From assembly GCA_965200925.1 (NCBI GenBank), contig OZ241738.1, positions 585,774 through 649,773 on the forward strand: a stretch of 64,000 bases of DNA. The letters run 5' to 3'. A program made the position numbers and the translations under genes. Below, piece after piece: positions 3,569 to 52,797 of the stretch. Under the pieces are notes generated by a model. It saw only the letters and a list, made by a program, of their open reading frames with translations. It searched no databases and was not told where the DNA came from. How positions within the stretch are numbered: position 1 is the stretch's first letter; every line of letters begins with the position of its first letter. The stretch comes from Alphaproteobacteria bacterium. GTDB taxonomy: Bacteria > Pseudomonadota > Alphaproteobacteria > UBA828.

Positions 3569-5653
3569 TCACGAAACCGGGGGGGTGGCCCCAGCGGCGG
3601 CCTTTTCCATACGCTCGCGGATGTCGGCCGCGACTTCGAGCACCTCGGCCGGCGCTCGGACGCTCTCGCCGGCGCGCTGGCGCAGGGCGACGACGAGCGG
3701 CGCCAAGGCGTCGGCTTTCTCGTCGTCTTCCGAGAGTATTTCGAGGAGGACGCGCTCGGGAATCCCACCAGCGATCAACGCTGGCACGGTTTCCTGCATG
3801 GCACCCAGCATCGCCCGATCGTCGGGAGCGAACGCAGCGTACGCGAGGCGAAAAGTCTCCAGGGCGTCTTCCGCACGGCCGCTTCTTATTTGCGCCGCGC
3901 CCTTGTTGATGAGCGCCTTGGCGACCAATGCCTGAACTTCCGGTGTATCGTCGTCGCCGAAGTGTTCGATCACTTGGTCGTATGTCGCAACCTCCGCTTC
4001 AGGCTCGCCAAGCTGGCCTTGCGTGAGGCCTTTGAAGATTAATGTCCAGGCGACCTGTGCCCGAGCTTCCGGTGTGCCGTCGCCGCTGAAGCGTTCGATC
4101 ACTTGGTCGTATATCGCGACCGCTGCCTCGGGATCGCCAAGCTGGGCTCGCGCAATGCCCTTGTTGACCAGCGCCCAGGCGACCTGTGCTCGGACTTCCG
4201 GCGTGTTGTCGTCGCCGAAGCGTTCGATCACTTGGTCGTATGTCTCGATCGCCGCTTCGGACTCGCCGCGCTTCACATGCGAAGCCGCCTCTGCCATAAG
4301 CGCCTCGATGTCGATCTCGCTCGTTTCGGCCAAGCTGGGCGGGTGGGCGGTGTTCAGCCGTGCCCCGCCAGGAAAAAAGCCTCCGATGTCCGGCGCCTCG
4401 GCGATCGCCCGCTCGATTCCCTCGCGAATGGTTGCAGACCGTATCGCCTCGGCCCGGAGTGTGCCGGACAGGTCCGCCAGTTCGTCGCGGCCGTAGAAAA
4501 CCGTCATGAAGCGGATCAGAGTTTGCACGACGGCCGCCGCGTCGCGTTCGCGTCGCAGCTTGTAGTAGATGCAATAGAGCCGCTCGGCGGCGGCGTAGCG
4601 CCGCTTGCGGCCGGTTCCTTCCACGGCGATTGCGCCGCGGTCGACGAGCCTGCCGAGCATGGTCGAGACGGTGCGGACGTCCATCCCGGCGCGCGCCGCG
4701 ATCTCGCCGGTGCTCGACGGCCGCCAGAGATCGACCGCCGCCAGATAGACCCGGCGCTCGGTCCTGGCCAGACTCTCCAGATGACCGCGAAAATACTCCG
4801 TGTGGTCATCGATGAGCGTCACCAGCTCTTCCATCAGGCGGCCCAGGGAGCGGTGCCGCGCGAATCCCGCGACGATGACCAGCAGGCGGGGGCTGCCGCC
4901 CGTGAGGATTTGCAAGGCCCTGATTTCGCCGTCGCTCCTCTCGTCGCTGGCGACCGCGTGCCACAGGCGCCGGCAGGCTTCTCTGTCCAGAGGCTCCAGG
5001 GAGATATGCCAGAACAGTTCGAAGAAAGGTTGGCGTGCATCGTCCAGCGCCGCGAAGCGGCTGGTGGCGGTGGCCAGCAGCATGATCCCGGCCTCCGACT
5101 GCAACGCTTGGCGCAGCCCCCAGCCGAAATCGGCATCCGCGGGATCGCAGAGTGCCTGAAGGTTCTCGACCATGAGGACCAGCCGCCTGTCGAGGAGCTC
5201 GGCCGCTTCGAGGACGGCGGCGCGCGCGCGCTCGGACAATTCGCGCTCGCGCCAGCGGGATTTCAGGTCGGCATGGGTATCGCGCAGTTCCTGCGAGAGA
5301 GCCGGGTCGTCGATCTCCTGCGCCAAGTGGAACAGCGCTTCGAGCCAGAAGTCGGCGAGACCGAGGATCTCGTGACTTTCCTCCATGAACCGCACCGGCA
5401 ACAGGTGCTGGGAGAGCGCTTCGTCGGTCCGGATCTCGGCCGCGGCGCGCGCCAGCAGCATGGTCTTGCCCCGGCCGCGTGGCGCGACGACCAGGACATG
5501 CTGGCAGGATGGTGAATCGACGTTTCCCTGGAGAATCTCGATCACCGTCTTGAGTTCGCGGCGCCGGACAACGAATTGTTCGATCACCTCACGGTCGGAC
5601 TGGAACAGCCCGGGATTGAACTTGCGAAGCGTCCGGGCGTTCGGGGCGGTCAT
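3569..5653 (-). CDS. STAND-like AAA+ ATPase with winged-helix and C-terminal TPR repeats (694 aa)
   Basis: Walker A is VVAPRGRGKTML and Walker B-like is RLVLMVENL. A MarR-like wHTH is present (VRTVSTMLGRLVDRGAIAVEGTGRKRRY), followed by three ~43-aa TPR-like repeats. I chose the ATG at 5653 because it overlaps the upstream stop as ATGA; the track ORF begins 19 codons earlier. Confidence 0.75.
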   Translation of the reverse strand: MTAPNARTLRKFNPGLFQSDREVIEQFVVRRRELKTVIEILQGNVDSPSCQHVLVVAPRGRGKTMLLARAAAEIRTDEALSQHLLPVRFMEESHEILGLADFWLEALFHLAQEIDDPALSQELRDTHADLKSRWRERELSERARAAVLEAAELLDRRLVLMVENLQALCDPADADFGWGLRQALQSEAGIMLLATATSRFAALDDARQPFFELFWHISLEPLDREACRRLWHAVASDERSDGEIRALQILTGGSPRLLVIVAGFARHRSLGRLMEELVTLIDDHTEYFRGHLESLARTERRVYLAAVDLWRPSSTGEIAARAGMDVRTVSTMLGRLVDRGAIAVEGTGRKRRYAAAERLYCIYYKLRRERDAAAVVQTLIRFMTVFYGRDELADLSGTLRAEAIRSATIREGIERAIAEAPDIGGFFPGGARLNTAHPPSLAETSEIDIEALMAEAASHVKRGESEAAIETYDQVIERFGDDNTPEVRAQVAWALVNKGIARAQLGDPEAAVAIYDQVIERFSGDGTPEARAQVAWTLIFKGLTQGQLGEPEAEVATYDQVIEHFGDDDTPEVQALVAKALINKGAAQIRSGRAEDALETFRLAYAAFAPDDRAMLGAMQETVPALIAGGIPERVLLEILSEDDEKADALAPLVVALRQRAGESVRAPAEVLEVAADIRERMEKAAAGATPPVS
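3936..4322. repeat. Three tandem ~129-bp coding repeats (TPR units) inside the STAND ATPase
   Basis: The string ttcgatcacttggtcgta recurs at 3965, 4094 and 4223 (period 129 bp). The encoded units are YDQVIERFGDD.TPE.RAQVAW.L..KG......LG.PEA. Confidence 0.8.
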
Positions 5654-45901: not shown

Positions 45902-46114
45902 CCGTCCGCTCGCCGACGCCGCGAATCTCCCGCTTCCACCTCGCCTCTCTCCTTCCCCCGAAACCAGGCATTTGCCGGGCGGGGGAATCCGCTCCGCGGA
46001 CGGGTCGTCGGCGATCCGGCGTGGCAGCGCGACCTCGCCGCGCACATGGGCGAGAACCTCGTTCAGGGCCATTTCGACCTCGCGGCCCGCCTGGGTTCGT
46101 TCCGCTCCGCTCAT
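45902..46114 (-). pseudogene. Truncated NadS/HigA-like antitoxin remnant, in frame with pckA
   Basis: The ATG at 46114 overlaps the toxin stop (ATGA). [43 protein letters not shown] resembles the N-terminal segment of HTH antitoxins partnered with this toxin type. No HTH follows, and there is no stop codon before the pckA ATG (track ORF 44294..46414). Confidence 0.45.
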
Positions 46115-46443
46115 CTGTCCGCCCCCTCCTCCTGGATCCTGGCCACCAGCCGCGAAAGCGCTTTCCTGTCCGTCGAGGTCAGGTCGTCGTGCTCTGCTTT
46201 CGCGTAAGCCGTCAGCAAATAGATGTCTCCAGGGCCGGCATGATGGAAATAGATCGCGCGGATGCCGCCCCGTTTGCCTCGGCCCGAACCTGCCCAGCGC
46301 AGCTTGCGGATGCCTCCCGTACCTCGAATGATCGGAGCACCGTCGGGATCGGTGACGATCGCCGCTTCCATTTCCCGCCGTGCGCCCTCCGAGATCAACT
46401 TGCGAACGGCACATTCATAGGTGCCGGTGACGAAGACCTGCAT
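46111..46443 (-). CDS. RelE/ParE-superfamily (HigB-like) type II toxin
   Basis: 110 aa. [28 protein letters not shown]....[23 protein letters not shown] is the hallmark of this toxin family. Confidence 0.75.
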
Positions 46444-46780
46444 TGATCGCAATATGCGCCATTCATCGGGGACTTGCCACCCCTTATCGGGGCTGTCTCC
46501 CTTGGCGCTTCGGATCTCGGTCTGATTCGCGAATGTCCGAGCCTCGTCGCGCGCGAAGCACACCGCCGAAGCGGCATCCACTCGCGAAGCGCCTCCGGGA
46601 ACGGCATTTCGTGCGGCCCGGAAAGACCGAAAGGTGATCGTCCCGGCCGTTCGGCGATTCGCGCGTTTCGGATAATATCGGCGGCCATCGGTGCCCGCGT
46701 CCCGGGGCCGGGCCGGCGCGGTTCCGGCAAACGACGAGGGGTCCATGGCCATGGGAGGGGAGGCGGTCGGCGGCGCGGCG

Positions 46781-48115
46781 ATGCCGTTCGCCCGCCATCT
46801 CGCGCGCACCGCCCGGCTCGCCGCGCCGGTGATCGCCGCCCGCGCCGGACTCCTGGTGATGGTCGCCATCGATTCGGCGATGCTCGGCCATTACCGGACG
46901 GAGGCGCTCGCCGCCTACGCGGCGGCCAACGCGGCGCAGGTGGTCATGGTCCTGATCGGCGTCGGGCTGCTCCAGGGCACGGTGATCCTCGTCGCCCAGG
47001 CGCGCGGTGCGGGCGACGACGCGGCCTGCGGCGCCTATTGGCGGGTCAGCATGGTCCACGGCGCGGTTCTTGGCCTCGTCATGAGCGCGATCTGCCTGCT
47101 CGGGCGCTGGATTCTGGCGGCGACGGGGCAGGAGACGGCGGTCGCCGCCGACGGCGGGGCCGTGCTCGACATGATCGCCTGGGGAACGCCGCCGCTCATG
47201 ATGTGGGTGGTGTGCACCCATTTCCTCGAAGGGCTCAGCCGGCCGCTTCCCGGCATGGTGGTCATGATCGGTGCCGTCCTTCTCAACGCGCTGCTCAATT
47301 GGGTTTTCATCTTCGGCAATCTCGGCGGGCCGGAGCGCGGGGCGGAGGGCGCGGCGATCGCGACGTCGCTGGTGCGCTGGCTCATGTTCGCCGCTCTCCT
47401 CCTGGTGGTGCTGCGCCTGCCGGACGCCGGCGCCCTTCGCGTGCGCGCGCCGGCGGTGGATTTCCGCGCGGTCTCCCGCCGGTTGCGGCGCATCGGCTAT
47501 CCGCTGGGCGCCGCCCGCGGCCTGGAGACGGCGGCGTTCGCGGCGCTCGTCATGCTGGCGGGCCATCTCGGCACGGAGGCCCTCGCCGCCTACCAGATCG
47601 GCTACAACCTGATCGGCCTCGTCTTCATGTGCGCCATCGGCACCGCCGCCGCCAGCATGGTCCGCGTCGGCAACGCGGTCGGCCGGCGCAATGCCGCCGA
47701 CGTGGCGCGCGCCGGCTGGGCCGGGGTCTTCTTCATCGTCTGCGTGATGGCCTGTTTCGCCGGGCCGTTCCTGGGGCTGGATACGGCGCTGGCTACGCTT
47801 TACACCGACGATCCCGCGGTGATCCCGGCGGCCGCGTCGCTGATCGCGATCTGCGGCGTGATCCTGGTCTTCGACGGTGTCCAGGCGGTGCTCATGGGCG
47901 CGCTGCGCGGCGTCGCCGACGTCTGGGTGCCGCCGGGGCTCCAGCTGGTCTCCTGGTGGTGCGTCTCGGTGCCGCTGGGCTACGTGCTGGCCTTCGCCTT
48001 CGGCGTCGGCGTGGACGGCCTCATGTGGGGCATCCTGGCGGGAGCACTGACCGCGAGCGGCCTCCTCGCCCTGCGCTTCCTGTCCGTAGCCCGTCGCCCC
48101 ATCGCGCGCTATTGA
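46781..48115 (+). CDS. MATE-family efflux transporter
   Basis: 12-TM profile with a MATE-like N-terminus FARHLARTARLAAPVIAARAGLLVM. Upstream in-frame ATGs at 46691 and 46745 are possible alternative starts. Confidence 0.85.
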   Translation: MPFARHLARTARLAAPVIAARAGLLVMVAIDSAMLGHYRTEALAAYAAANAAQVVMVLIGVGLLQGTVILVAQARGAGDDAACGAYWRVSMVHGAVLGLVMSAICLLGRWILAATGQETAVAADGGAVLDMIAWGTPPLMMWVVCTHFLEGLSRPLPGMVVMIGAVLLNALLNWVFIFGNLGGPERGAEGAAIATSLVRWLMFAALLLVVLRLPDAGALRVRAPAVDFRAVSRRLRRIGYPLGAARGLETAAFAALVMLAGHLGTEALAAYQIGYNLIGLVFMCAIGTAAASMVRVGNAVGRRNAADVARAGWAGVFFIVCVMACFAGPFLGLDTALATLYTDDPAVIPAAASLIAICGVILVFDGVQAVLMGALRGVADVWVPPGLQLVSWWCVSVPLGYVLAFAFGVGVDGLMWGILAGALTASGLLALRFLSVARRPIARY

Positions 48116-48203
48116 GCCGCCGCTTCCGGCTTCTCCTGAGGCGCCCGGCGCAGCGCGTTCTTCCGCGAGGGCTGCACTCGCATGGAGTGGACCAAGACAA
48201 GAA

Positions 48204-48232
48204 CTTGACGGGGGGGGGGGGGGGTATAGAAA
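48204..48232 (+). promoter_or_regulatory. Putative autotransporter promoter with a homopolymeric spacer
   Basis: CTTGAC(G) lies at 48204-48210 and TATAGA at 48225-48230 (or TAGAAA at 48227-48232), and the whole spacer is G. It sits 55 nt upstream of the ATG at 48286, which has a GAGGTGAGG SD. Confidence 0.55.
48210..48224. repeat. G15 homopolymer
   Basis: Fifteen consecutive G read directly from the sequence (1 + 10 + 4 across the printed blocks). Confidence 0.95.
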
Positions 48233-48285
48233 ATCCCGATTCGGCGTGTCGAGTCGCGCGGGAGTTTGAGGTGAGGTATCCACCG

Positions 48286-51200
48286 ATGCACATCGAGGGG
48301 CGGACGGCTCGTATGTCGGGCCGGTTTTTTTGTGTGCTGGCGCTTCTGGCGACGGCGGTTCTTCTTGCGCCGGGCGAGGCGCGGGCGCAGACGCCGGCGG
48401 ACCCCCGGAATCAATGCGGGGCGCTCGTCTCGGGCGCGGCCACCTGTTCGAACCAAGCCTATGCCACCGGCATCCGCTACGACGAGAACGATGGCTGGCC
48501 CGGCGGCGTCGTCGGCCCCGTCACGCTCACCGTCACCGGCGGGATGGCGACGACGGTCTCCGCCCCGGCATCGCCCCCCAACGGCTGGACGGATGGCGCC
48601 ATCGTCATCCGCACCGCCGTCCAGGGGGCAGGCGACAGCACGTCGCGCGCCATCGCCCTCACGGTCGGCTCCGACGGCAACGCCGTGGCGATCACCGAAC
48701 ATGCCACCGAGACCAACCACGGCATCCTCGTCCATCAGTTCGGCAACGCCGCCGACGCGGCGACGGTGACGGTCGGCAGCGGCGTCACCATCGGCACGGC
48801 TTCCGCCCCGATGAAGCATTACGGCGTCACCGTGCTCGTGACCGAGAGCGGCAACACCGCCGACCACGGCATCGCCAGCGCCGCCACCATCCATTCCACG
48901 GGCTTCGGCCTGCTGATGGACGCCAGAGGCTCGGGCAGCACCACCGTCACCAACTCCGGCTCCATCACCACCGCGGCGACCGGTGGCACCGCCGGCCAGC
49001 AGTCCGGCATCCGCGTCCTGGACTGGAGCGGAGGCTTCGGCGACGACCGCGCCGCCGAAACCACCACCACCGTCACCAACTCCGGCTCCATCGCGGTGAG
49101 CGCCGCGCAAGCCCACGGCATCCACGTGGACGCCGACGGCCTGGGCCTCTACAGGACCGTCCACAGCGGCACCGTCTCGGCGTCGGGCGCCGGCGGCCAC
49201 GGCATCTACGTCCAGGCGAGCCGTCACGCCGGCGCCGCCGGCTCCGAGGCCGTCGCGGTCCAGAGCTCGGGCGTCATCACGGCCACCGGCGCGGGCGGCC
49301 ACGGCATCCTGGTCGACGCCTCCAGCGCCCCCGACCCCGGGAACGGCAACATCGCCGTCACCACCACCGGCGGCACCATCTCGGCCACCGGCGAAGGTGC
49401 CCTCGGCATCCTGGCCGCCAACGCCGGCGACGGCGCCATCACCGTCACCAACGCCGCCGCCATCGAGGCCGCCGCCGACGGCATCCATGTGGGCAAGAAC
49501 CCCGCCAACAAGGGCGCCATCCGCATCGTCAACACCGCCGCCATCGAGGCGAAGCGCTACGGCATCGTGGTCTGGCACGGGGGCCGCAGCGACGTCCGCA
49601 TCGAGAACAGCGGCGCCATCGCCCCGGCATCGGGCGCCAGCCCGGCGAGGGTCGGCATTCTCGCCGACCAGGCCGCCGCCGGCGACATCGTGATCGTGAA
49701 CGGCGCCGACGTCACCGGCAGGGAGCAGGGCATCTTCGCGCGCAATACGGAGGGCGGCACGGGCGGCGGCGGCGCCGTCACCGTCACCCACAGCGCGGGC
49801 GAAGTCAGCGGTGGGACGGGGGAAGGCATCCTCGCCGTGATCGGCCGATGGCGGGACGAGGACGGCGCCGAATCTCCCGCCCCCAACAGCACGGCGACCG
49901 TCAGGGTCGAGGTCACGGGTGGTTCGGTCAAGGCCTCGGAAACCCACAACAGGGTCGCCATCGCGGCGTTGAACCACGAGGGCGGCTCCGTCGAGGTGAG
50001 CGTCTCGCAAGGCGCCACGCTGACGGCGAGGCACAATGCCGGCATCTACGCCCAGCTGGCGGACCGCCAGAACACCGGCGGGCGCATCGCGATCACCCAG
50101 GCGGGGGCGATCACGGCCGAGAAGGGCATCTATGCCACCGTGCCCCGCGCCAGCGCGGCCGGCGAGACGCGCACCCAGCCGCTGATCGACGTCGCCTGGA
50201 CGGGAACCTTCACGCAGGCCGAGCGCGCCGCCGGCAGCTGGAACAACGTCGCCCACGCCATCGAAGGCGCGCAGGAGGGCCAGGCGGGCGCGGCCTTCCG
50301 CGGCGCGGCGGCATGGGCCGGCATCGACGCCGAAGTGCTGTCCTGGCGGGTGTTGAACCGGATCGCGACCACCGGCGACGACCCGGGCGAGATCGCCGAC
50401 GCCGCGGCCCAGGCGGCGCTGCTCGACACCGCCTCGACCGACGCGGCGGTGAAGGCGCGGGCGGAGGCGATCCTGACGCGCTTCCGCGCGGTGCTCACCG
50501 CCGGGGGGCCGGCCATTCCCGGCGCCGACGACATCGACGCCGACGGCGACGGCAGCTACTCCGACGCCGAGCTCACGGCGTATCTGAGCGCCGACAGCGA
50601 CGCCCGCAGGGTGTTGCTGCGCGACATTCTGGCGCGGAGTCTCTCGGCGGCGGAACAGGCGGTGCTGGAGGCGGTGGCGACGGGCGGCGACGTGAACGCC
50701 GCCCTCGACGACGCCAGCTTCTCCGCCGGCTACAAGGCGGCGGTGCGGGCGCTGCTGGACCGCTACAACGCGGGCGACATCCGCGTCGCCATGAACGCGG
50801 GTTCCATCGCCTCGAGCGGCGACGGCATCCGTGCCTGGTACGCGGCACCCCACGCCAGCAACGGCGCCATCGACGTGACCGTGGCCGGGGGTGCCAGCGT
50901 CACCGGTGGCAGGGCGGGCATCTATGCCGCCAACGCCGGCACCATTTCCGTCACCGTCGCCGCCGGCACCACCGTCAGCGGCGGCGAGGAGGGCATTTAT
51001 GCCGCCAACGCCGGCGGTATCGCCGTCACCGTCGCCGAGGGCGCCAGCGTCACCGGCGGCGAGGCGGGCATCTATGTCGCCAACGCCGGCGAGGGCCTGC
51101 GCATCGAGAAGAAATACACCTCCACGGCCATCCAGGACGCGAACGAGGAACTGGGCCCCGACGACCTCGTGACCCTTTCGGACCATCTCGATCAGGTGGT

Positions 51201-52797
51201 TCGGGTGCAGGGCACGGTGACGGGCGGGACGGACGCGGCCGTTCATCTCGACGGCGGCGGCGGGTTGATCGTCACCGGTGCCGGCAAGCTGGTGGCCGGT
51301 TCTTCGGGCCGTGCGGTGCTGGTGAACGATCCGGGGCCGGCGGTCATCTACATCGAGGGCGAGGTGACGGGCGGTGCTGGCCCGGAAGACAAGCCCGCGC
51401 CGGCGGCGGTGCGTCTGACCGGCGGCGGCAGCGTCACCGTCGGCCTCAACGGGCGGGTGCGGGCCAACGGTGCCGACAGCGCCATCCGGAGCGACAACGA
51501 GCCGACCGCGGTCTACATCGAGGGCGAGGCGACGGGCGACGAGGGCGCCACGGCGGCGGTGCATCTGACCGGCGGCGGCAGCGTCACCGTCGGCCTCAAC
51601 GGGCGGGTGCGGGCCAACGGCGCCGACAGCGCCATCCGGCGCGACAACGAGCCGACTGCGGTAGTGTTCCTCACCGACAGGACCGTCGGCGATCTGACCC
51701 GGGGCGGCGCCCGGGAGGTGCTGGCTCGGGTGGAGGGCGGAATCGTCGGCGACGGGGGCGGGGACAACGTCACCATCGCCGAGGTCCGGGACGGTGTCAC
51801 CACCGGTCACGAGAGAAAGAACCTGCCCGTGGGCGACGACGGCAACGTGGTGCTCGACGAGCTTCCGCCCGACACCTTCAGTTGCGACAGGGCGATGGAC
51901 GGCCGCTGCCGGCTGTACGAGGCGCTGCCTTCGGTGCTGCTGTCGATGAACGGCCTAGCGACCCGGGCGGACCGCCTGTCGGCGGCGCAGGACGGGCACG
52001 GCGGCTGGGCGCGGGTGGAGACCGCGCGTGGCGAGTGGAAGGCGGACAGTTCGACGCAGCCGGGCATCGCCTACGACCATTCCCGTCACGGGGTGCGCGC
52101 CGGCGTGGATTTCCCGGTGGACGAGAGCAGCCGCCTCGGCGCGTCGGTGCACGGCCTTCAAGGTTCGGCGAAGATGTGGGCGACGGCCGCGGGCCAGCAG
52201 GGCGAGGTCGAGCTTTCGGGCATGGGCGTGGGCGTGAACGCCACGACGATGGCTGACGATGTCTATCTCGACGCCCAGGCGACGGTGACGTGGTACGAAG
52301 CGGATCTCACGTCATCGACCCACGCCGCCCCACTGAAGGACAGGGTCAAGGGTCTGGGCTGGGCGCTGGGCGTTGAGGTTGGGCATCGTATGCCGTTGGG
52401 GGGCGGTGCGTTTGTGATGCCGCGTGCCGGTCTGGTGTGGTCGGAGGTGACGCTCGACGACTTCACGGACGAGGTGGGCAGCGGCGCGCGTGTGTCGGTT
52501 GAGGACGCGCGGAGCATGACGGGCCGCGCGGGATTGAGGGTTGAGGCTCCTGTGGGGTCAGGGGTGCTTCTGCATAGCTCGTTGGATGCGGTGCACGAGT
52601 TTTCGGAAGAGACGAGCACGTCGGTGTCGGATACGTTGCTGACGTCGTCTGTTGCGTCGACGTCGGTTCGTGTTGGCGTGGGCGGCGCGTTTGTTCTGGG
52701 TGAGAACACGTCGCTGCGTGCGGCGGCTGACTACACGGCGGGGGGCAGCGACATCCGCGCCTGGGGCGGCAGCCTGAACCTCGCCGTGCGCTTCTGA
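48286..52797 (+). CDS. Autotransporter (type Va) with a repetitive beta-helical passenger and C-terminal beta-barrel (1503 aa)
   Basis: Signal peptide MHIEGRTARMSGRFFCVLALLATAVLLAPGEARA. The passenger is Gly/Ala/Thr-rich with repeated GGHGI and GIYAANAG motifs. The C-terminal ~270 aa have alternating-residue barrel strands ending in LNLAVRF. The upstream 600 aa of the 2107-aa track ORF are an out-of-frame readthrough of the MATE gene. Confidence 0.9.
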   Translation: MHIEGRTARMSGRFFCVLALLATAVLLAPGEARAQTPADPRNQCGALVSGAATCSNQAYATGIRYDENDGWPGGVVGPVTLTVTGGMATTVSAPASPPNGWTDGAIVIRTAVQGAGDSTSRAIALTVGSDGNAVAITEHATETNHGILVHQFGNAADAATVTVGSGVTIGTASAPMKHYGVTVLVTESGNTADHGIASAATIHSTGFGLLMDARGSGSTTVTNSGSITTAATGGTAGQQSGIRVLDWSGGFGDDRAAETTTTVTNSGSIAVSAAQAHGIHVDADGLGLYRTVHSGTVSASGAGGHGIYVQASRHAGAAGSEAVAVQSSGVITATGAGGHGILVDASSAPDPGNGNIAVTTTGGTISATGEGALGILAANAGDGAITVTNAAAIEAAADGIHVGKNPANKGAIRIVNTAAIEAKRYGIVVWHGGRSDVRIENSGAIAPASGASPARVGILADQAAAGDIVIVNGADVTGREQGIFARNTEGGTGGGGAVTVTHSAGEVSGGTGEGILAVIGRWRDEDGAESPAPNSTATVRVEVTGGSVKASETHNRVAIAALNHEGGSVEVSVSQGATLTARHNAGIYAQLADRQNTGGRIAITQAGAITAEKGIYATVPRASAAGETRTQPLIDVAWTGTFTQAERAAGSWNNVAHAIEGAQEGQAGAAFRGAAAWAGIDAEVLSWRVLNRIATTGDDPGEIADAAAQAALLDTASTDAAVKARAEAILTRFRAVLTAGGPAIPGADDIDADGDGSYSDAELTAYLSADSDARRVLLRDILARSLSAAEQAVLEAVATGGDVNAALDDASFSAGYKAAVRALLDRYNAGDIRVAMNAGSIASSGDGIRAWYAAPHASNGAIDVTVAGGASVTGGRAGIYAANAGTISVTVAAGTTVSGGEEGIYAANAGGIAVTVAEGASVTGGEAGIYVANAGEGLRIEKKYTSTAIQDANEELGPDDLVTLSDHLDQVVRVQGTVTGGTDAAVHLDGGGGLIVTGAGKLVAGSSGRAVLVNDPGPAVIYIEGEVTGGAGPEDKPAPAAVRLTGGGSVTVGLNGRVRANGADSAIRSDNEPTAVYIEGEATGDEGATAAVHLTGGGSVTVGLNGRVRANGADSAIRRDNEPTAVVFLTDRTVGDLTRGGAREVLARVEGGIVGDGGGDNVTIAEVRDGVTTGHERKNLPVGDDGNVVLDELPPDTFSCDRAMDGRCRLYEALPSVLLSMNGLATRADRLSAAQDGHGGWARVETARGEWKADSSTQPGIAYDHSRHGVRAGVDFPVDESSRLGASVHGLQGSAKMWATAAGQQGEVELSGMGVGVNATTMADDVYLDAQATVTWYEADLTSSTHAAPLKDRVKGLGWALGVEVGHRMPLGGGAFVMPRAGLVWSEVTLDDFTDEVGSGARVSVEDARSMTGRAGLRVEAPVGSGVLLHSSLDAVHEFSEETSTSVSDTLLTSSVASTSVRVGVGGAFVLGENTSLRAAADYTAGGSDIRAWGGSLNLAVRF
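50891..51093. repeat. 75-bp coding tandem repeat, ~2.7 copies, in the passenger domain
   Basis: The tat of GIYAANAG recurs at 50923, 50998 and 51073. The unit is GG(E/R)xGIYAANAG.I.VTVA.G..V.G. Confidence 0.8.
51343..51662. repeat. 150-bp coding tandem repeat, ~2.1 copies, in the passenger domain
   Basis: The ~112-nt block cggcggcggtgc.tctgaccggcggcggcagcgtcaccgtcggcctcaacgggcgggtgcgggccaacgg... occurs at 51401 and 51551 with only a few mismatches. The unit is LTGGGSVTVGLNGRVRANGADSAIR.DNEPTAV. Confidence 0.85.

What the first reader, a model, noticed from the sequence alone, without database searches (positions are those of the whole stretch)
48204..48232. G15 tract occupying the entire -35/-10 spacer of the autotransporter promoter: phase-variation candidate
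Seen: the sequence is cTTGACg-GGGGGGGGGGGGGG-TATAGAaaat, 55 nt upstream of the SD and ATG of a 1503-aa autotransporter and directly after the MATE gene stop. In E. coli convention the hexamer spacing is 14 nt (16 if TAGAAA is the -10). That is at or below the optimum, so gain or loss of 1-3 G would tune or switch transcription. Established: homopolymeric tracts of this length undergo slipped-strand mispairing. Tracts in promoter spacers drive ON/OFF or graded expression of surface proteins, such as Neisseria porA and opc and Bordetella fim genes. This is unexpected in a high-GC alphaproteobacterium-like background.
Basis: partly seen in the sequence, partly recalled or inferred. Interest (0 to 1): 0.75.

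Follow-up and report, generated by a model that had tools for sequence, protein, structure and literature searches.

The report
Variable poly-G tract in autotransporter promoter
A run of 15 G's sits between the two recognition boxes of the promoter of a large surface-protein (autotransporter) gene and changes length between near-identical strains, so it is very probably a slippage-driven expression switch of a known kind, here in an uncultivated high-GC alphaproteobacterium.

Summary
G15 lies at 48210-48224, flanked by TTGAC and TATAGAAAAT, 61 nt upstream of the ATG of a 1503-aa type Va autotransporter. The next longest homopolymer in the 64 kb is 7 nt.

The phase-variation reading is supported by comparison, not by experiment.
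- Three syntenic loci from other assemblies have flanking genes 98.5-99.2% identical to the window. They carry G14, G21, or a contig break inside the tract. The -35 box, the AT-rich -10 block and the Shine-Dalgarno (SD) site do not vary.
- A second group of orthologues also varies: TTGACGgc-G14, TTGACGgcgc-G14 and TTGACGgcgc-G13.
- The layout TTGAC, 0-5 nt, G12-25, then TA recurs upstream of homologous autotransporter genes whose promoters otherwise cannot be aligned. Spacers cluster at 17-19 nt.
- Across 842 kb of related loci, 27 of 41 G/C runs of 10 nt or more fall within about 400 nt of autotransporter 5' ends, roughly a 63-fold enrichment.

The mechanism is the porA/opc/Bordetella fim type, so this is a new member of a known kind. 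The wider pattern may be unreported: one autotransporter family carries poly-G spacers, poly-C tracts near the start codon and 13-nt leader arrays across several metagenome-assembled genomes (MAGs).

Not shown: the transcription start, any dependence of expression on tract length, variation within a population, or which tract length is ON.

The parts
46691..48115 (+). Upstream MATE-family efflux transporter gene (context only). Its stop lies 89 nt before the -35 box.
   Evidence: Pfam PF01554 and TIGR00797. The order PEPCK / RelE-like / MATE / autotransporter is the same in L001 and L002. No terminator-like site lies between its stop and the promoter.
48205..48210 (+). Predicted -35 hexamer TTGACG. 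Its last base is the first G of the tract.
   Evidence: It matches TTGACA at 5 of 6 positions. It is invariant in L001 and L002. TTGAC/TTGAA recurs 0-5 nt upstream of the G tract in six other, otherwise unalignable, autotransporter promoters.
48210..48224 (+). G15 homopolymer tract, the proposed hypermutable element that sets the spacing between the -35 and -10 boxes.
   Evidence: The orthologous tract is G14 in L001 and G21 in L002, and the L004 contig breaks inside it.
48225..48234 (+). AT-rich block TATAGAAAAT holding three overlapping -10 candidates: TATAGA (48225-48230, spacer 14), TAGAAA (48227-48232, spacer 16) and GAAAAT (48229-48234, spacer 18).
   Evidence: Only GAAAAT has both A at position 2 and T at position 6, and it is the site reported by the promoter scan. 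The block is invariant in all four strains.
48268..48276 (+). Shine-Dalgarno-like GAGGTGAGG, 9 nt before the ATG.
   Evidence: Read directly from the sequence. Conserved in L001, L002 and L004.
48286..52797 (+). Type Va autotransporter gene of 1503 aa. It has a signal peptide (MHIEGRTARMSGRFFCVLALLATAVLLAPGEARA), a repeat-rich passenger domain and a C-terminal beta-barrel (residues about 1241-1481, nt about 52006-52728).
   Evidence: Translation. PF03797 at E 1.9e-33 and TIGR01414 at E 2.4e-33. A 75-nt tandem repeat lies in the passenger. Between strains the passenger is 93-96% identical, against 98.5-99.2% for flanking genes and 98% for the barrel.

Best explanation
The G15 tract is a hypermutable simple-sequence repeat that forms the spacer of the sigma-70-type promoter of the autotransporter gene. 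Slipped-strand mispairing during replication adds or removes G's. That changes the distance and rotational phasing between the -35 box (TTGACG) and the -10 box (inside TATAGAAAAT). Transcription of the surface protein is therefore switched or graded stochastically and heritably, as in transcriptional phase variation of porA, opc and the Bordetella fim genes.

Shown here:
- the tract and its promoter-like flanks;
- length differences between near-identical strains, with invariant flanks;
- the same layout in homologous autotransporter promoters;
- strong enrichment of long G/C tracts at autotransporter 5' ends.

Inferred:
- that these hexamers are the promoter in use;
- that tract length controls expression;
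- that switching is frequent and reversible within a population.

My working assignment takes the -10 box as GAAAAT, the only candidate with A at -11 and T at -7. On that basis the window (spacer 18) and L001 (spacer 17) would be ON, and L002 (spacer 24) would be OFF.
For: 1. Anatomy. TTGACG, 14 G's, then TATAGAAAAT, with the SD site and ATG 51-55 nt downstream. It is the only promoter-like site in 1.3 kb, against 0.1 expected.

2. Length polymorphism in group 1. The tract is G15 (window), G14 (L001) and G21 (L002), and the L004 contig stops in the tract. The hexamers and SD site are identical. MATE is 99.1-99.2% identical with 0-1 gapped positions in 1425 nt.

3. Length polymorphism in group 2. 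L006 has TTGACGgc-G14-TAATGA, L052 has TTGACGgcgc-G14-TAATGG and L053 has TTGACGgcgc-G13-TAATGG. These loci are 94-98% identical.

4. Recurrent layout without flank homology. The window, L006, L009, L015, L049, L020 and L021 all show TTGNNN, 0-5 nt, G12-25, then TA. Using -10 hexamers with A2 and T6, the spacers are 18, 17, 24 (group 1); 17, 19, 18 (group 2); 18; 15; 17. Seven of nine fall at 17-19, even though tract length and the extra bases both vary.

5. Enrichment. 25 of 57 autotransporter 5' ends have a G/C run of 10 nt or more within 400 nt upstream of the signal-peptide core. 27 of 41 such runs lie in 3% of 842 kb. Run lengths are bimodal: 8-9 nt is rare and a second mode spans 10-34 nt.

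6. The passenger domain evolves faster than the flanks, as expected for a surface protein under selection.

7. Precedent in a high-GC proteobacterium. Bordetella fim promoter C-stretches affect transcript abundance and vary between strains (PMC1891110). porA and opc spacer tracts are established knowledge.
Against: - No transcription start is mapped and no expression data exist.
- If the -10 box is TATAGA, which directly abuts the tract as TAAAAT and TAAGGT do in homologues, all three observed lengths give spacers of 13, 14 and 20 nt. None of these is near the optimum.
- Homopolymer lengths in long-read (probably HiFi) MAG consensus sequences can be off by about 1 nt. G14 versus G15, and G13 versus G14, are therefore weak evidence. 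G21 versus G14/G15 and the GC insertion in group 2 are robust.
- Differences between strains show mutability, not reversible high-frequency switching.
- No terminator separates MATE from the promoter, so read-through transcription could blunt an ON/OFF effect.
- Paralogous promoters may share ancestry, so the recurrences are not fully independent.
Confidence: 0.7

Rival explanations
1. The tract mutates readily but serves no function. It would be a run that drifts by slippage in a tolerant intergenic spacer, with no selected switching role, and the autotransporter would be regulated by other means.
For: Only differences between strains are seen, and no expression data exist. Under the TATAGA reading, none of the observed lengths gives a good spacer. 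L021 (G25) and L002 (G21) show that lengths far outside any functional spacing persist in consensus genomes.
Against: Runs of 10 nt or more are about 63-fold concentrated at autotransporter 5' ends, and run lengths are bimodal. The tract always sits between a TTGAC and a TA-initiated AT-rich hexamer in promoters whose flanks are otherwise unalignable. Total spacers cluster at 17-19 nt. Neutral drift would not place tracts so specifically.
Confidence: 0.12
2. The G run acts through DNA structure or a binding protein rather than through its length. It could form a G-quadruplex or i-motif, or an A-form-like rigid segment, on the non-template strand, and this would modulate RNA polymerase or recruit a regulator.
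For: G15 is exactly the minimum for an intramolecular three-tetrad quadruplex (GGG-G-GGG-G-GGG-G-GGG); this is an inference from the sequence. All spacer-type tracts have G on the sense strand. All tracts of the start-codon-proximal type have C on the sense strand. That strand bias is not required by a pure spacing model.
Against: Homologues with G12-G14 cannot form three-tetrad quadruplexes, yet they keep the same layout. The clustering of total spacer length at 17-19 nt points to spacing as the constrained variable. The strand bias could reflect shared ancestry of paralogues. This rival also does not exclude slippage-based switching.
Confidence: 0.1
3. The functional promoter lies elsewhere, or the gene is read through from MATE. 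The tract would then act only as an upstream or insulating element, for example by changing the phasing of an upstream activator or UP element.
For: There is no terminator-like site between the MATE stop and the tract. In L018 a G15 lies immediately upstream of a TTGACG rather than downstream of it, preceded by A8. Tracts in this family can therefore occupy positions other than the spacer.
Against: TTGACG-N18-GAAAAT is the only promoter-like match in 1.3 kb. The hexamers are the only conserved elements among homologous promoters. The distance to the SD site and ATG (about 50 nt) is typical of a leader.
Confidence: 0.06
4. Sequencing or assembly artefact, such as a poly-G no-signal artefact or a homopolymer mis-call.
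For: The L004 contig ends in an implausible G19-AA-G34. That is typical of poly-G read artefacts and shows that assemblers struggle at this site. Long-read consensus can mis-count long homopolymers.
Against: The tract is internal, with both flanks matching, in the window, L001 and L002, which come from different samples and assembly types. Equivalent tracts occur specifically upstream of autotransporter genes in many MAGs. No artefact would target them that way.
Confidence: 0.02

Closest known systems
Neisseria meningitidis porA (poly-G) and opc (poly-C) promoter tracts
   Same: A G/C homopolymer lies between the -35 and -10 regions (porA) or directly upstream of the -10 region (opc) of the promoter of an outer-membrane protein gene. 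Tract length sets expression level by slipped-strand mispairing. This is established knowledge (van der Ende 1995; Sarkari 1994), cited from memory.
   Different: In porA the tract is about 9-11 G's within a 17-nt spacer. Here the tract supplies the whole spacer to TATAGA, or 14 of 18 nt to GAAAAT. The host here is an uncultivated 70%-GC alphaproteobacterial MAG lineage, not a low-GC mucosal pathogen. The gene is an autotransporter, not a porin or Opc. No expression data exist.
Bordetella pertussis / B. bronchiseptica fim2, fim3, fimX and fimN promoter C-stretches
   Same: The host is a high-GC proteobacterium. Long C/G tracts (C7 to C22) in promoters of surface-structure genes differ in length between strains and correlate with transcript abundance (PMC1891110). 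The same genomes also carry tracts in the autotransporter genes tcfA and bapC.
   Different: The fim tract lies between a BvgA activator site (the 'fim box') and the -10 box, and the promoter depends on the activator. Here a near-consensus TTGACG -35 box is present, and no activator site was identified. The Bordetella autotransporter tracts are in coding sequence, not in the promoter.
Moraxella catarrhalis uspA1 poly-G and Haemophilus influenzae hia poly-T
   Same: A homopolymer upstream of an autotransporter-class adhesin gene modulates its transcription. This is established knowledge (Lafontaine 2001; Atack 2015), cited from memory.
   Different: Those are trimeric (type Vc) autotransporters. 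The uspA1 tract is downstream of the transcription start, in the leader, not in the promoter spacer.
Neisseria nalP/mspA, Bordetella tcfA/bapC, and Campylobacter autotransporters with coding-region tracts
   Same: Classical autotransporters under homopolymer-mediated phase variation (PMC3723659, PMC1891110, PMC7168839).
   Different: Those are translational frameshift switches inside the ORF. The window's tract is intergenic. Coding-region tracts do occur in some homologues found here: L036 G11 and L020 G11, in the signal-peptide region.

Membership tests
SSR-mediated transcriptional phase variation, promoter-spacer type (porA/opc-like) | A homopolymer of about 9 nt or more lies between the -35 and -10 elements of a promoter directly upstream of the regulated gene. 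| tested here: met
   TTGACG, G14 in the spacer, then TATAGAAAAT, 51-55 nt before the ATG. The hexamers are predicted, not mapped.
SSR-mediated transcriptional phase variation, promoter-spacer type (porA/opc-like) | Tract length differs between closely related strains while the flanks stay conserved. | tested here: met
   G15, G14 and G21 with invariant hexamers and flanking genes about 99% identical. A second orthologue group has spacers of 17, 19 and 18 nt. Differences of 1 nt are within possible consensus error.
SSR-mediated transcriptional phase variation, promoter-spacer type (porA/opc-like) | Length heterogeneity within a clonal population, with reversible high-frequency switching. | not testable with these tools
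   No read-level data or cultures are available. Only consensus assemblies could be compared.
SSR-mediated transcriptional phase variation, promoter-spacer type (porA/opc-like) | Transcript or protein level depends on tract length. | not testable with these tools
   This needs reporter fusions or metatranscriptomes. The only indirect support is the clustering of spacers at 17-19 nt across homologues.
Type Va (classical) autotransporter | C-terminal 12-stranded beta-barrel translocator domain (PF03797 / TIGR01414). | tested here: met
   PF03797 at E 1.9e-33, residues 1241-1481. TIGR01414 at E 2.4e-33.
Type Va (classical) autotransporter | N-terminal Sec signal peptide and a large repeat-rich passenger domain. 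| tested here: met
   The N-terminus shows a basic stretch, a hydrophobic core and an APGEARA-Q cleavage-like motif. This N-terminal pattern is conserved in 50 or more homologues. The passenger is Gly/Ala/Thr-rich with tandem repeats. The fold was not modelled.
Bordetella fim-type activator-dependent C-stretch promoter | The tract separates an activator (BvgA) binding site from the -10 box, and no functional -35 box is present. | tested here: not met
   A 5/6 TTGACG -35 hexamer directly abuts the tract. No activator-site search was possible.
Promoter G-quadruplex element | Four G-runs able to form stacked tetrads, conserved among homologues. | tested here: inconclusive
   G15 is just long enough for three tetrads. 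Homologues with G12-G14 are not.

The most novel reading that the evidence does not exclude
The window's tract may be one instance of a family-wide contingency-locus system in uncultivated, probably sponge- or invertebrate-associated, Alpha- and Gammaproteobacteria. In this reading one large autotransporter family has repeatedly been placed under at least three different hypermutable repeat devices:
- poly-G promoter spacers;
- perfect 13-nt tandem arrays of 4-32 copies in the leader.

This would give non-pathogenic symbionts a combinatorial repertoire of phase-variable surface proteins. Such a repertoire would resemble that of mucosal pathogens and could serve to evade host recognition or phage.
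Probability: 0.45. Interest if true: 0.75.

Novelty: new member of a known kind. Interest (0 to 1): 0.55.

Why it matters
Phase variation by simple-sequence repeats has been described almost entirely in host-adapted pathogens and commensals of vertebrates. Here the signature, with real length polymorphism between strains, appears at an autotransporter promoter in an uncultivated 70%-GC alphaproteobacterial lineage. It is repeated at dozens of homologous genes in co-occurring MAGs.

If confirmed, stochastic switching of surface proteins would be a general strategy of these bacteria, which are probably invertebrate symbionts. That bears on how symbionts escape host phagocytosis, immunity or phage attack.

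There are also practical consequences:
- these tracts break short-read assemblies, as in L004;
- they are mis-counted in long-read consensus sequences;
- consensus MAG sequences therefore hide population heterogeneity exactly where the biology lies.

Tried and rejected
- Exact-protein look-ups of the window's autotransporter and MATE found nothing on record, and nor did the same-genome paralogue P0032. Other tracts in the same genome could therefore not be examined.
- The JGI metagenome scan with CTTGACGGGGGN{0,30}GGGTATAGAAAA gave 0 hits. A protein-profile scan of the same collection found no relatives. The family seems confined to the ENA/NCBI MAG sets.
- Rfam found no known RNA family anywhere in the window.
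- Folding the putative leader gave z-scores of +0.35 and +0.18. An apparent GUGU/GCGC compensatory change does not define a stable shared hairpin.
- A terminator-like hairpin plus T7 lies just inside the ORF (48305-48331). Its z-score is -1.15, and one stem position is broken in L002. I rejected it as an attenuator; the T-run encodes Phe-Phe of the signal peptide.
- I asked whether the poly-C 'type B' tracts are type A promoters on the opposite strand. They are not: the reverse complements lack TTGAC and TA flanks.
- Loci L003/L006 (second gene), L005, L054 and L055 hold 65-78% homologues in other contexts and have no tract directly upstream. These genes sit second in tandem pairs or behind other promoters.
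- Literature searches for sponge, symbiont, autotransporter and phase variation, and for the sample and accession numbers, found no relevant paper on this.
- The habitat could not be verified. 'PANK22-1' looks like a study code for a sponge-microbiome study, and the MAG titles (Alpha- and Gammaproteobacteria, Latescibacterota) fit a high-microbial-abundance sponge. Both points are inference only.

Full report
**1. The observation**

The sequence at 48200-48234 reads agaacTTGAC-G15-TATAGAAAAT. The G run spans 48210-48224. The next longest homopolymers in the 64 kb are a G7 and a T7. The window is 70.6% GC, and about 0.014 G or C runs of 15 nt or more are expected under independent base draws. 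The observed run-length decay (G5:46, G6:17, G7:1) predicts far fewer.

TTGACG occupies 48205-48210. The AT-rich block after the tract offers three overlapping -10 candidates:
- TATAGA, spacer 14;
- TAGAAA, spacer 16;
- GAAAAT, spacer 18.

A consensus scan of 47600-48900 reports a single promoter-like site, TTGACG-18-GAAAAT, against 0.1 expected from shuffles. A Shine-Dalgarno (SD) site, GAGGTGAGG (48268-48276), precedes the ATG at 48286.

The ORF 48286-52797 encodes 1503 aa. It has a signal peptide, a Gly/Ala/Thr-rich repetitive passenger and a C-terminal autotransporter barrel (PF03797 at E 1.9e-33, TIGR01414 at E 2.4e-33).

The upstream gene is a MATE transporter (46691-48115). Its stop lies 89 nt before the -35 box, with no terminator-like site between them. 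The one loose point is that the tract is not 'directly after' the MATE stop.

**2. Orthologous loci: the tract changes length and its flanks do not**

A protein search found orthologues at 92, 88 and 85% identity. Their contigs show the same gene order: PEPCK, a RelE-like gene, MATE, the autotransporter, then DUF1326.

| Locus | Source | Tract |
|---|---|---|
| window | – | G15 |
| L001 | scaffold-type assembly, sample code PANK22-1 | G14 |
| L002 | long-read-style contig, 11x coverage | G21 |
| L004 | second PANK22-1 sample | contig ends in the tract (G19-AA-G34, then TATAGAAAAT) |

The L004 sequence is the usual signature of an assembler failing on a long G run, with poly-G artefact reads appended.

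In the alignment the -35 box, the AT-rich block, the SD site and the ATG are identical in all strains. The tract length is the main indel.

Identity to the window differs by segment:
- flanking genes, 98.5-99.2%, with 0-1 gapped positions in the 1425-nt MATE gene;
- autotransporter passenger, 93-96% with indels;
- beta-barrel, 98%.

These are strains of one species. The tract is the most length-unstable site in the locus, and the exposed part of the protein evolves faster than its neighbours.

One caveat applies. Consensus homopolymer length from long reads can be wrong by about 1 nt. G14 versus G15 is therefore weak evidence, while G21 versus G14/G15 is robust.

**3. A second orthologue group behaves the same way**

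The 75-77% homologues P0005, P0006 and P0007 lie second in a tandem pair of autotransporter genes. The first gene of each pair has the same kind of promoter:
- L006: cccTTGACGgc-G14-TAATGAT;
- L052: TTGACGgcgc-G14-TAATGGT;
- L053: TTGACGgcgc-G13-TAATGGT.

These loci are 94-98% identical. With AATGAT/AATGGT as the -10 box, the spacers are 17, 19 and 18 nt.

**4. The layout recurs across the protein family**

A profile scan of one genome per species returned 46 loci.

Listing homopolymers in these loci gave an unexpected result. G or C runs of 10-34 nt lie just upstream of the autotransporter match in about 20 of them.

I anchored each gene on the hydrophobic core of its signal peptide. On that basis:
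- 25 of 57 autotransporter 5' ends have a G/C run of 10 nt or more within 400 nt upstream;
- 27 of all 41 such runs fall in that 3% of the 842 kb, roughly a 63-fold enrichment;
- run lengths are bimodal, with 8-9 nt rare and a second mode from 10 to 34 nt.

The window-type layout (type A) appears in the window group, the L006 group, L009, L015, L049, L020 and L021. It consists of TTGAC/TTGAA/TTGCG, 0-5 further bases, G12-G25 on the sense strand, then a hexamer beginning TA.

Outside these elements the promoters cannot be aligned. The hexamers and the tract are what is conserved. Using -10 hexamers with A at position 2 and T at position 6, the spacers are as follows:

| Promoter(s) | Spacer (nt) |
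|---|---|
| window, L001, L002 | 18, 17, 24 |
| L006, L052, L053 | 17, 19, 18 |
| L009 | 18 |
| L015 | 15 |
| L049 | 17 |

Seven of nine fall at 17-19 nt, although tract length (12-21) and the number of extra bases (0-5) both vary. This is what would be expected if the tract sets the spacing of a working sigma-70-type promoter, with some alleles sitting in an OFF state (L002 at 24; L021 with G25).

**5. Mechanism and its uncertainty**

The best-supported model is slipped-strand mispairing in the G tract. It changes the spacing and phasing between the -35 and -10 boxes, and so the transcription of a surface protein.

Which hexamer is the -10 box is unresolved:
- by the A(-11)/T(-7) rule and the scan it is GAAAAT, which makes G14 and G15 ON and G21 OFF;
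- by analogy with homologues whose -10 box abuts the tract (TAAAAT, TAAGGT) it would be TATAGA, which makes all three observed alleles sub-optimal (spacers 13, 14, 20).

Three overlapping -10 candidates at 2-nt steps could also give graded rather than binary output. Read-through from MATE cannot be excluded, because no terminator was found.

A structural role such as a G-quadruplex is a minor rival. G15 is the minimum for three tetrads, and the strand bias is striking: G on the sense strand in all type A tracts, C in all type B tracts. However, homologues with G12-G14 keep the layout, and it is the total spacer length that looks constrained.

**6. Comparison with known systems**

Functionally this works like N. 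meningitidis porA (poly-G in the spacer) and opc (poly-C before the -10 box). It also resembles the Bordetella fim promoters, where C-stretches of 7-22 nt vary between strains and correlate with transcript level in a high-GC proteobacterium (PMC1891110).

Phase-variable autotransporters are well known, but usually through coding-region tracts: nalP/mspA (PMC3723659), tcfA/bapC (PMC1891110) and Campylobacter (PMC7168839), all. Other cases use leader or promoter tracts of trimeric autotransporters (uspA1, hia; cited from memory).

The membership features that can be tested by sequence are met: position in a promoter spacer, and polymorphism between strains. Switching within a population and length-dependent expression cannot be tested here. 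The fim-type definition (activator site, no -35 box) is not met, because a near-consensus -35 box abuts the tract.

I found no relevant paper linking sponge or other invertebrate symbionts with phase-variable autotransporters.

**7. Verdict**

It is a new member of a known kind of switch.

The added value lies in the context. The host is an uncultivated high-GC alphaproteobacterial MAG lineage; its habitat is probably a sponge or other invertebrate, but this is unverified. Its autotransporter family is systematically associated with hypermutable repeats of several designs.

Scores:
- interest: 0.55;
- confidence in the mechanism: 0.7;
- family-wide 'symbiont phasome' reading: probability about 0.45, interest 0.75 if true.

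Noticed in passing
L014 5635-5652 (C18), L024 5901-5912 (C12), L027 5816-5834 (C19), L035 8349-8361 (C13), L042 5874-5888 (C15), L046 1377-1399 (C23), L048 5867-5878 (C12); also L008, L016, L031, L039: A second layout ('type B') has a poly-C tract of 12-23 nt on the sense strand, 20-45 nt upstream of the autotransporter start codon (MKAR...). It often follows a conserved segment, ggttccgaagATGgttGGAAGCACTGACcgCATAAT. The tract could lie at the transcription start or in the leader, after a CATAAT -10-like box. Alternatively it could lie in a short upstream reading frame (M-x-G-S-T-D-R...PPPP) that is in frame with the gene in some loci. Homologues L025, L030 and L051 have the same context with a decayed tract.
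   Followed up: partly
L007 3029-3080, L010 5777-5945, L011 5599-5897, L012 1681-1901, L017 5894-5945, L034 5785-5927 (all MAG OZ241357.1); L050 14304-14719 (OZ251539.1): In another MAG the autotransporter paralogues carry no poly-G. Instead they carry perfect 13-nt tandem arrays (TCTTCACGGGGCC) of 4, 13, 2+20, 17, 4 and 11 copies. The arrays lie between a promoter-like TTGGCA-N17/18-TATGGT and the SD/ATG, so they are in the 5' leader. The same 13-mer occurs as 32 copies upstream of a different signal-peptide gene in a different 6.1-Mb MAG.
   Followed up: partly
L036 2998-3008 (G11) and 2877-2886 (C10); L020 5955-5965 (G11) and 5635-5649 (G15): Some homologues combine an upstream tract with a second G11 tract inside the signal-peptide coding region. 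This would be a translational frameshift switch on top of a transcriptional one.
   Followed up: no
L018 5783-5807: Here A8-TC-G15 lies immediately upstream of a TTGACG -35-like box, not in the spacer. L021 also has an A8 about 20 nt upstream of its -35 box. Tracts in this family may also change the phasing of an upstream A-tract (UP-like element).
   Followed up: no
window 48305-48331: A GC-rich hairpin (7 pairs) followed by T7 lies 20 nt inside the autotransporter ORF. This T7 is the only T run of 7 nt or more in the 64 kb, and it is invariant in all four strains. The terminator scan flagged it, but folding is not significant (z -1.15) and a stem base is broken in L002. It most likely just encodes Phe-Phe of the signal peptide.
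   Followed up: yes
window 50862-51091 and about 51003-51656: The passenger domain contains a 75-nt tandem repeat (3.1 copies) and a larger duplicated segment. Orthologues differ in copy number, giving proteins of 1503, 1495, 1409 and 1408 aa. The protein therefore also varies by repeat expansion and contraction.
   Followed up: partly
L018 10847-10858 and 16610-16619; L025 10090-10099; L040 7950-7961: Shorter G/C tracts (10-12 nt) sit next to copies of a REP-like palindromic element (gtcattcccgcgaaagcgggaatccagg). They lie just downstream of autotransporter stop codons in MAG OZ251446.1.
   Followed up: no
L013 2117-2133 (C17) and 3872-3903 (C32); L048 13243-13259 (C17); L042 2803-2816 (C14): These long C tracts are not next to an autotransporter 5' end. 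The two in L013 share similar right-hand flanks (…gctcccggg…ggtgaccggcg.ccgg(g)aaa..ccgggcttt…), which suggests a repeated element. L048 C17 read on the opposite strand gives TTGCAT-N21-TACGGT.
   Followed up: partly
L001 826-1296, L002 818-1288 (equivalent to window about 46111-46580, minus strand): A 156-aa gene with a weak RelE-family hit lies between PEPCK and MATE in the orthologous loci. It was not examined in the window.
   Followed up: no
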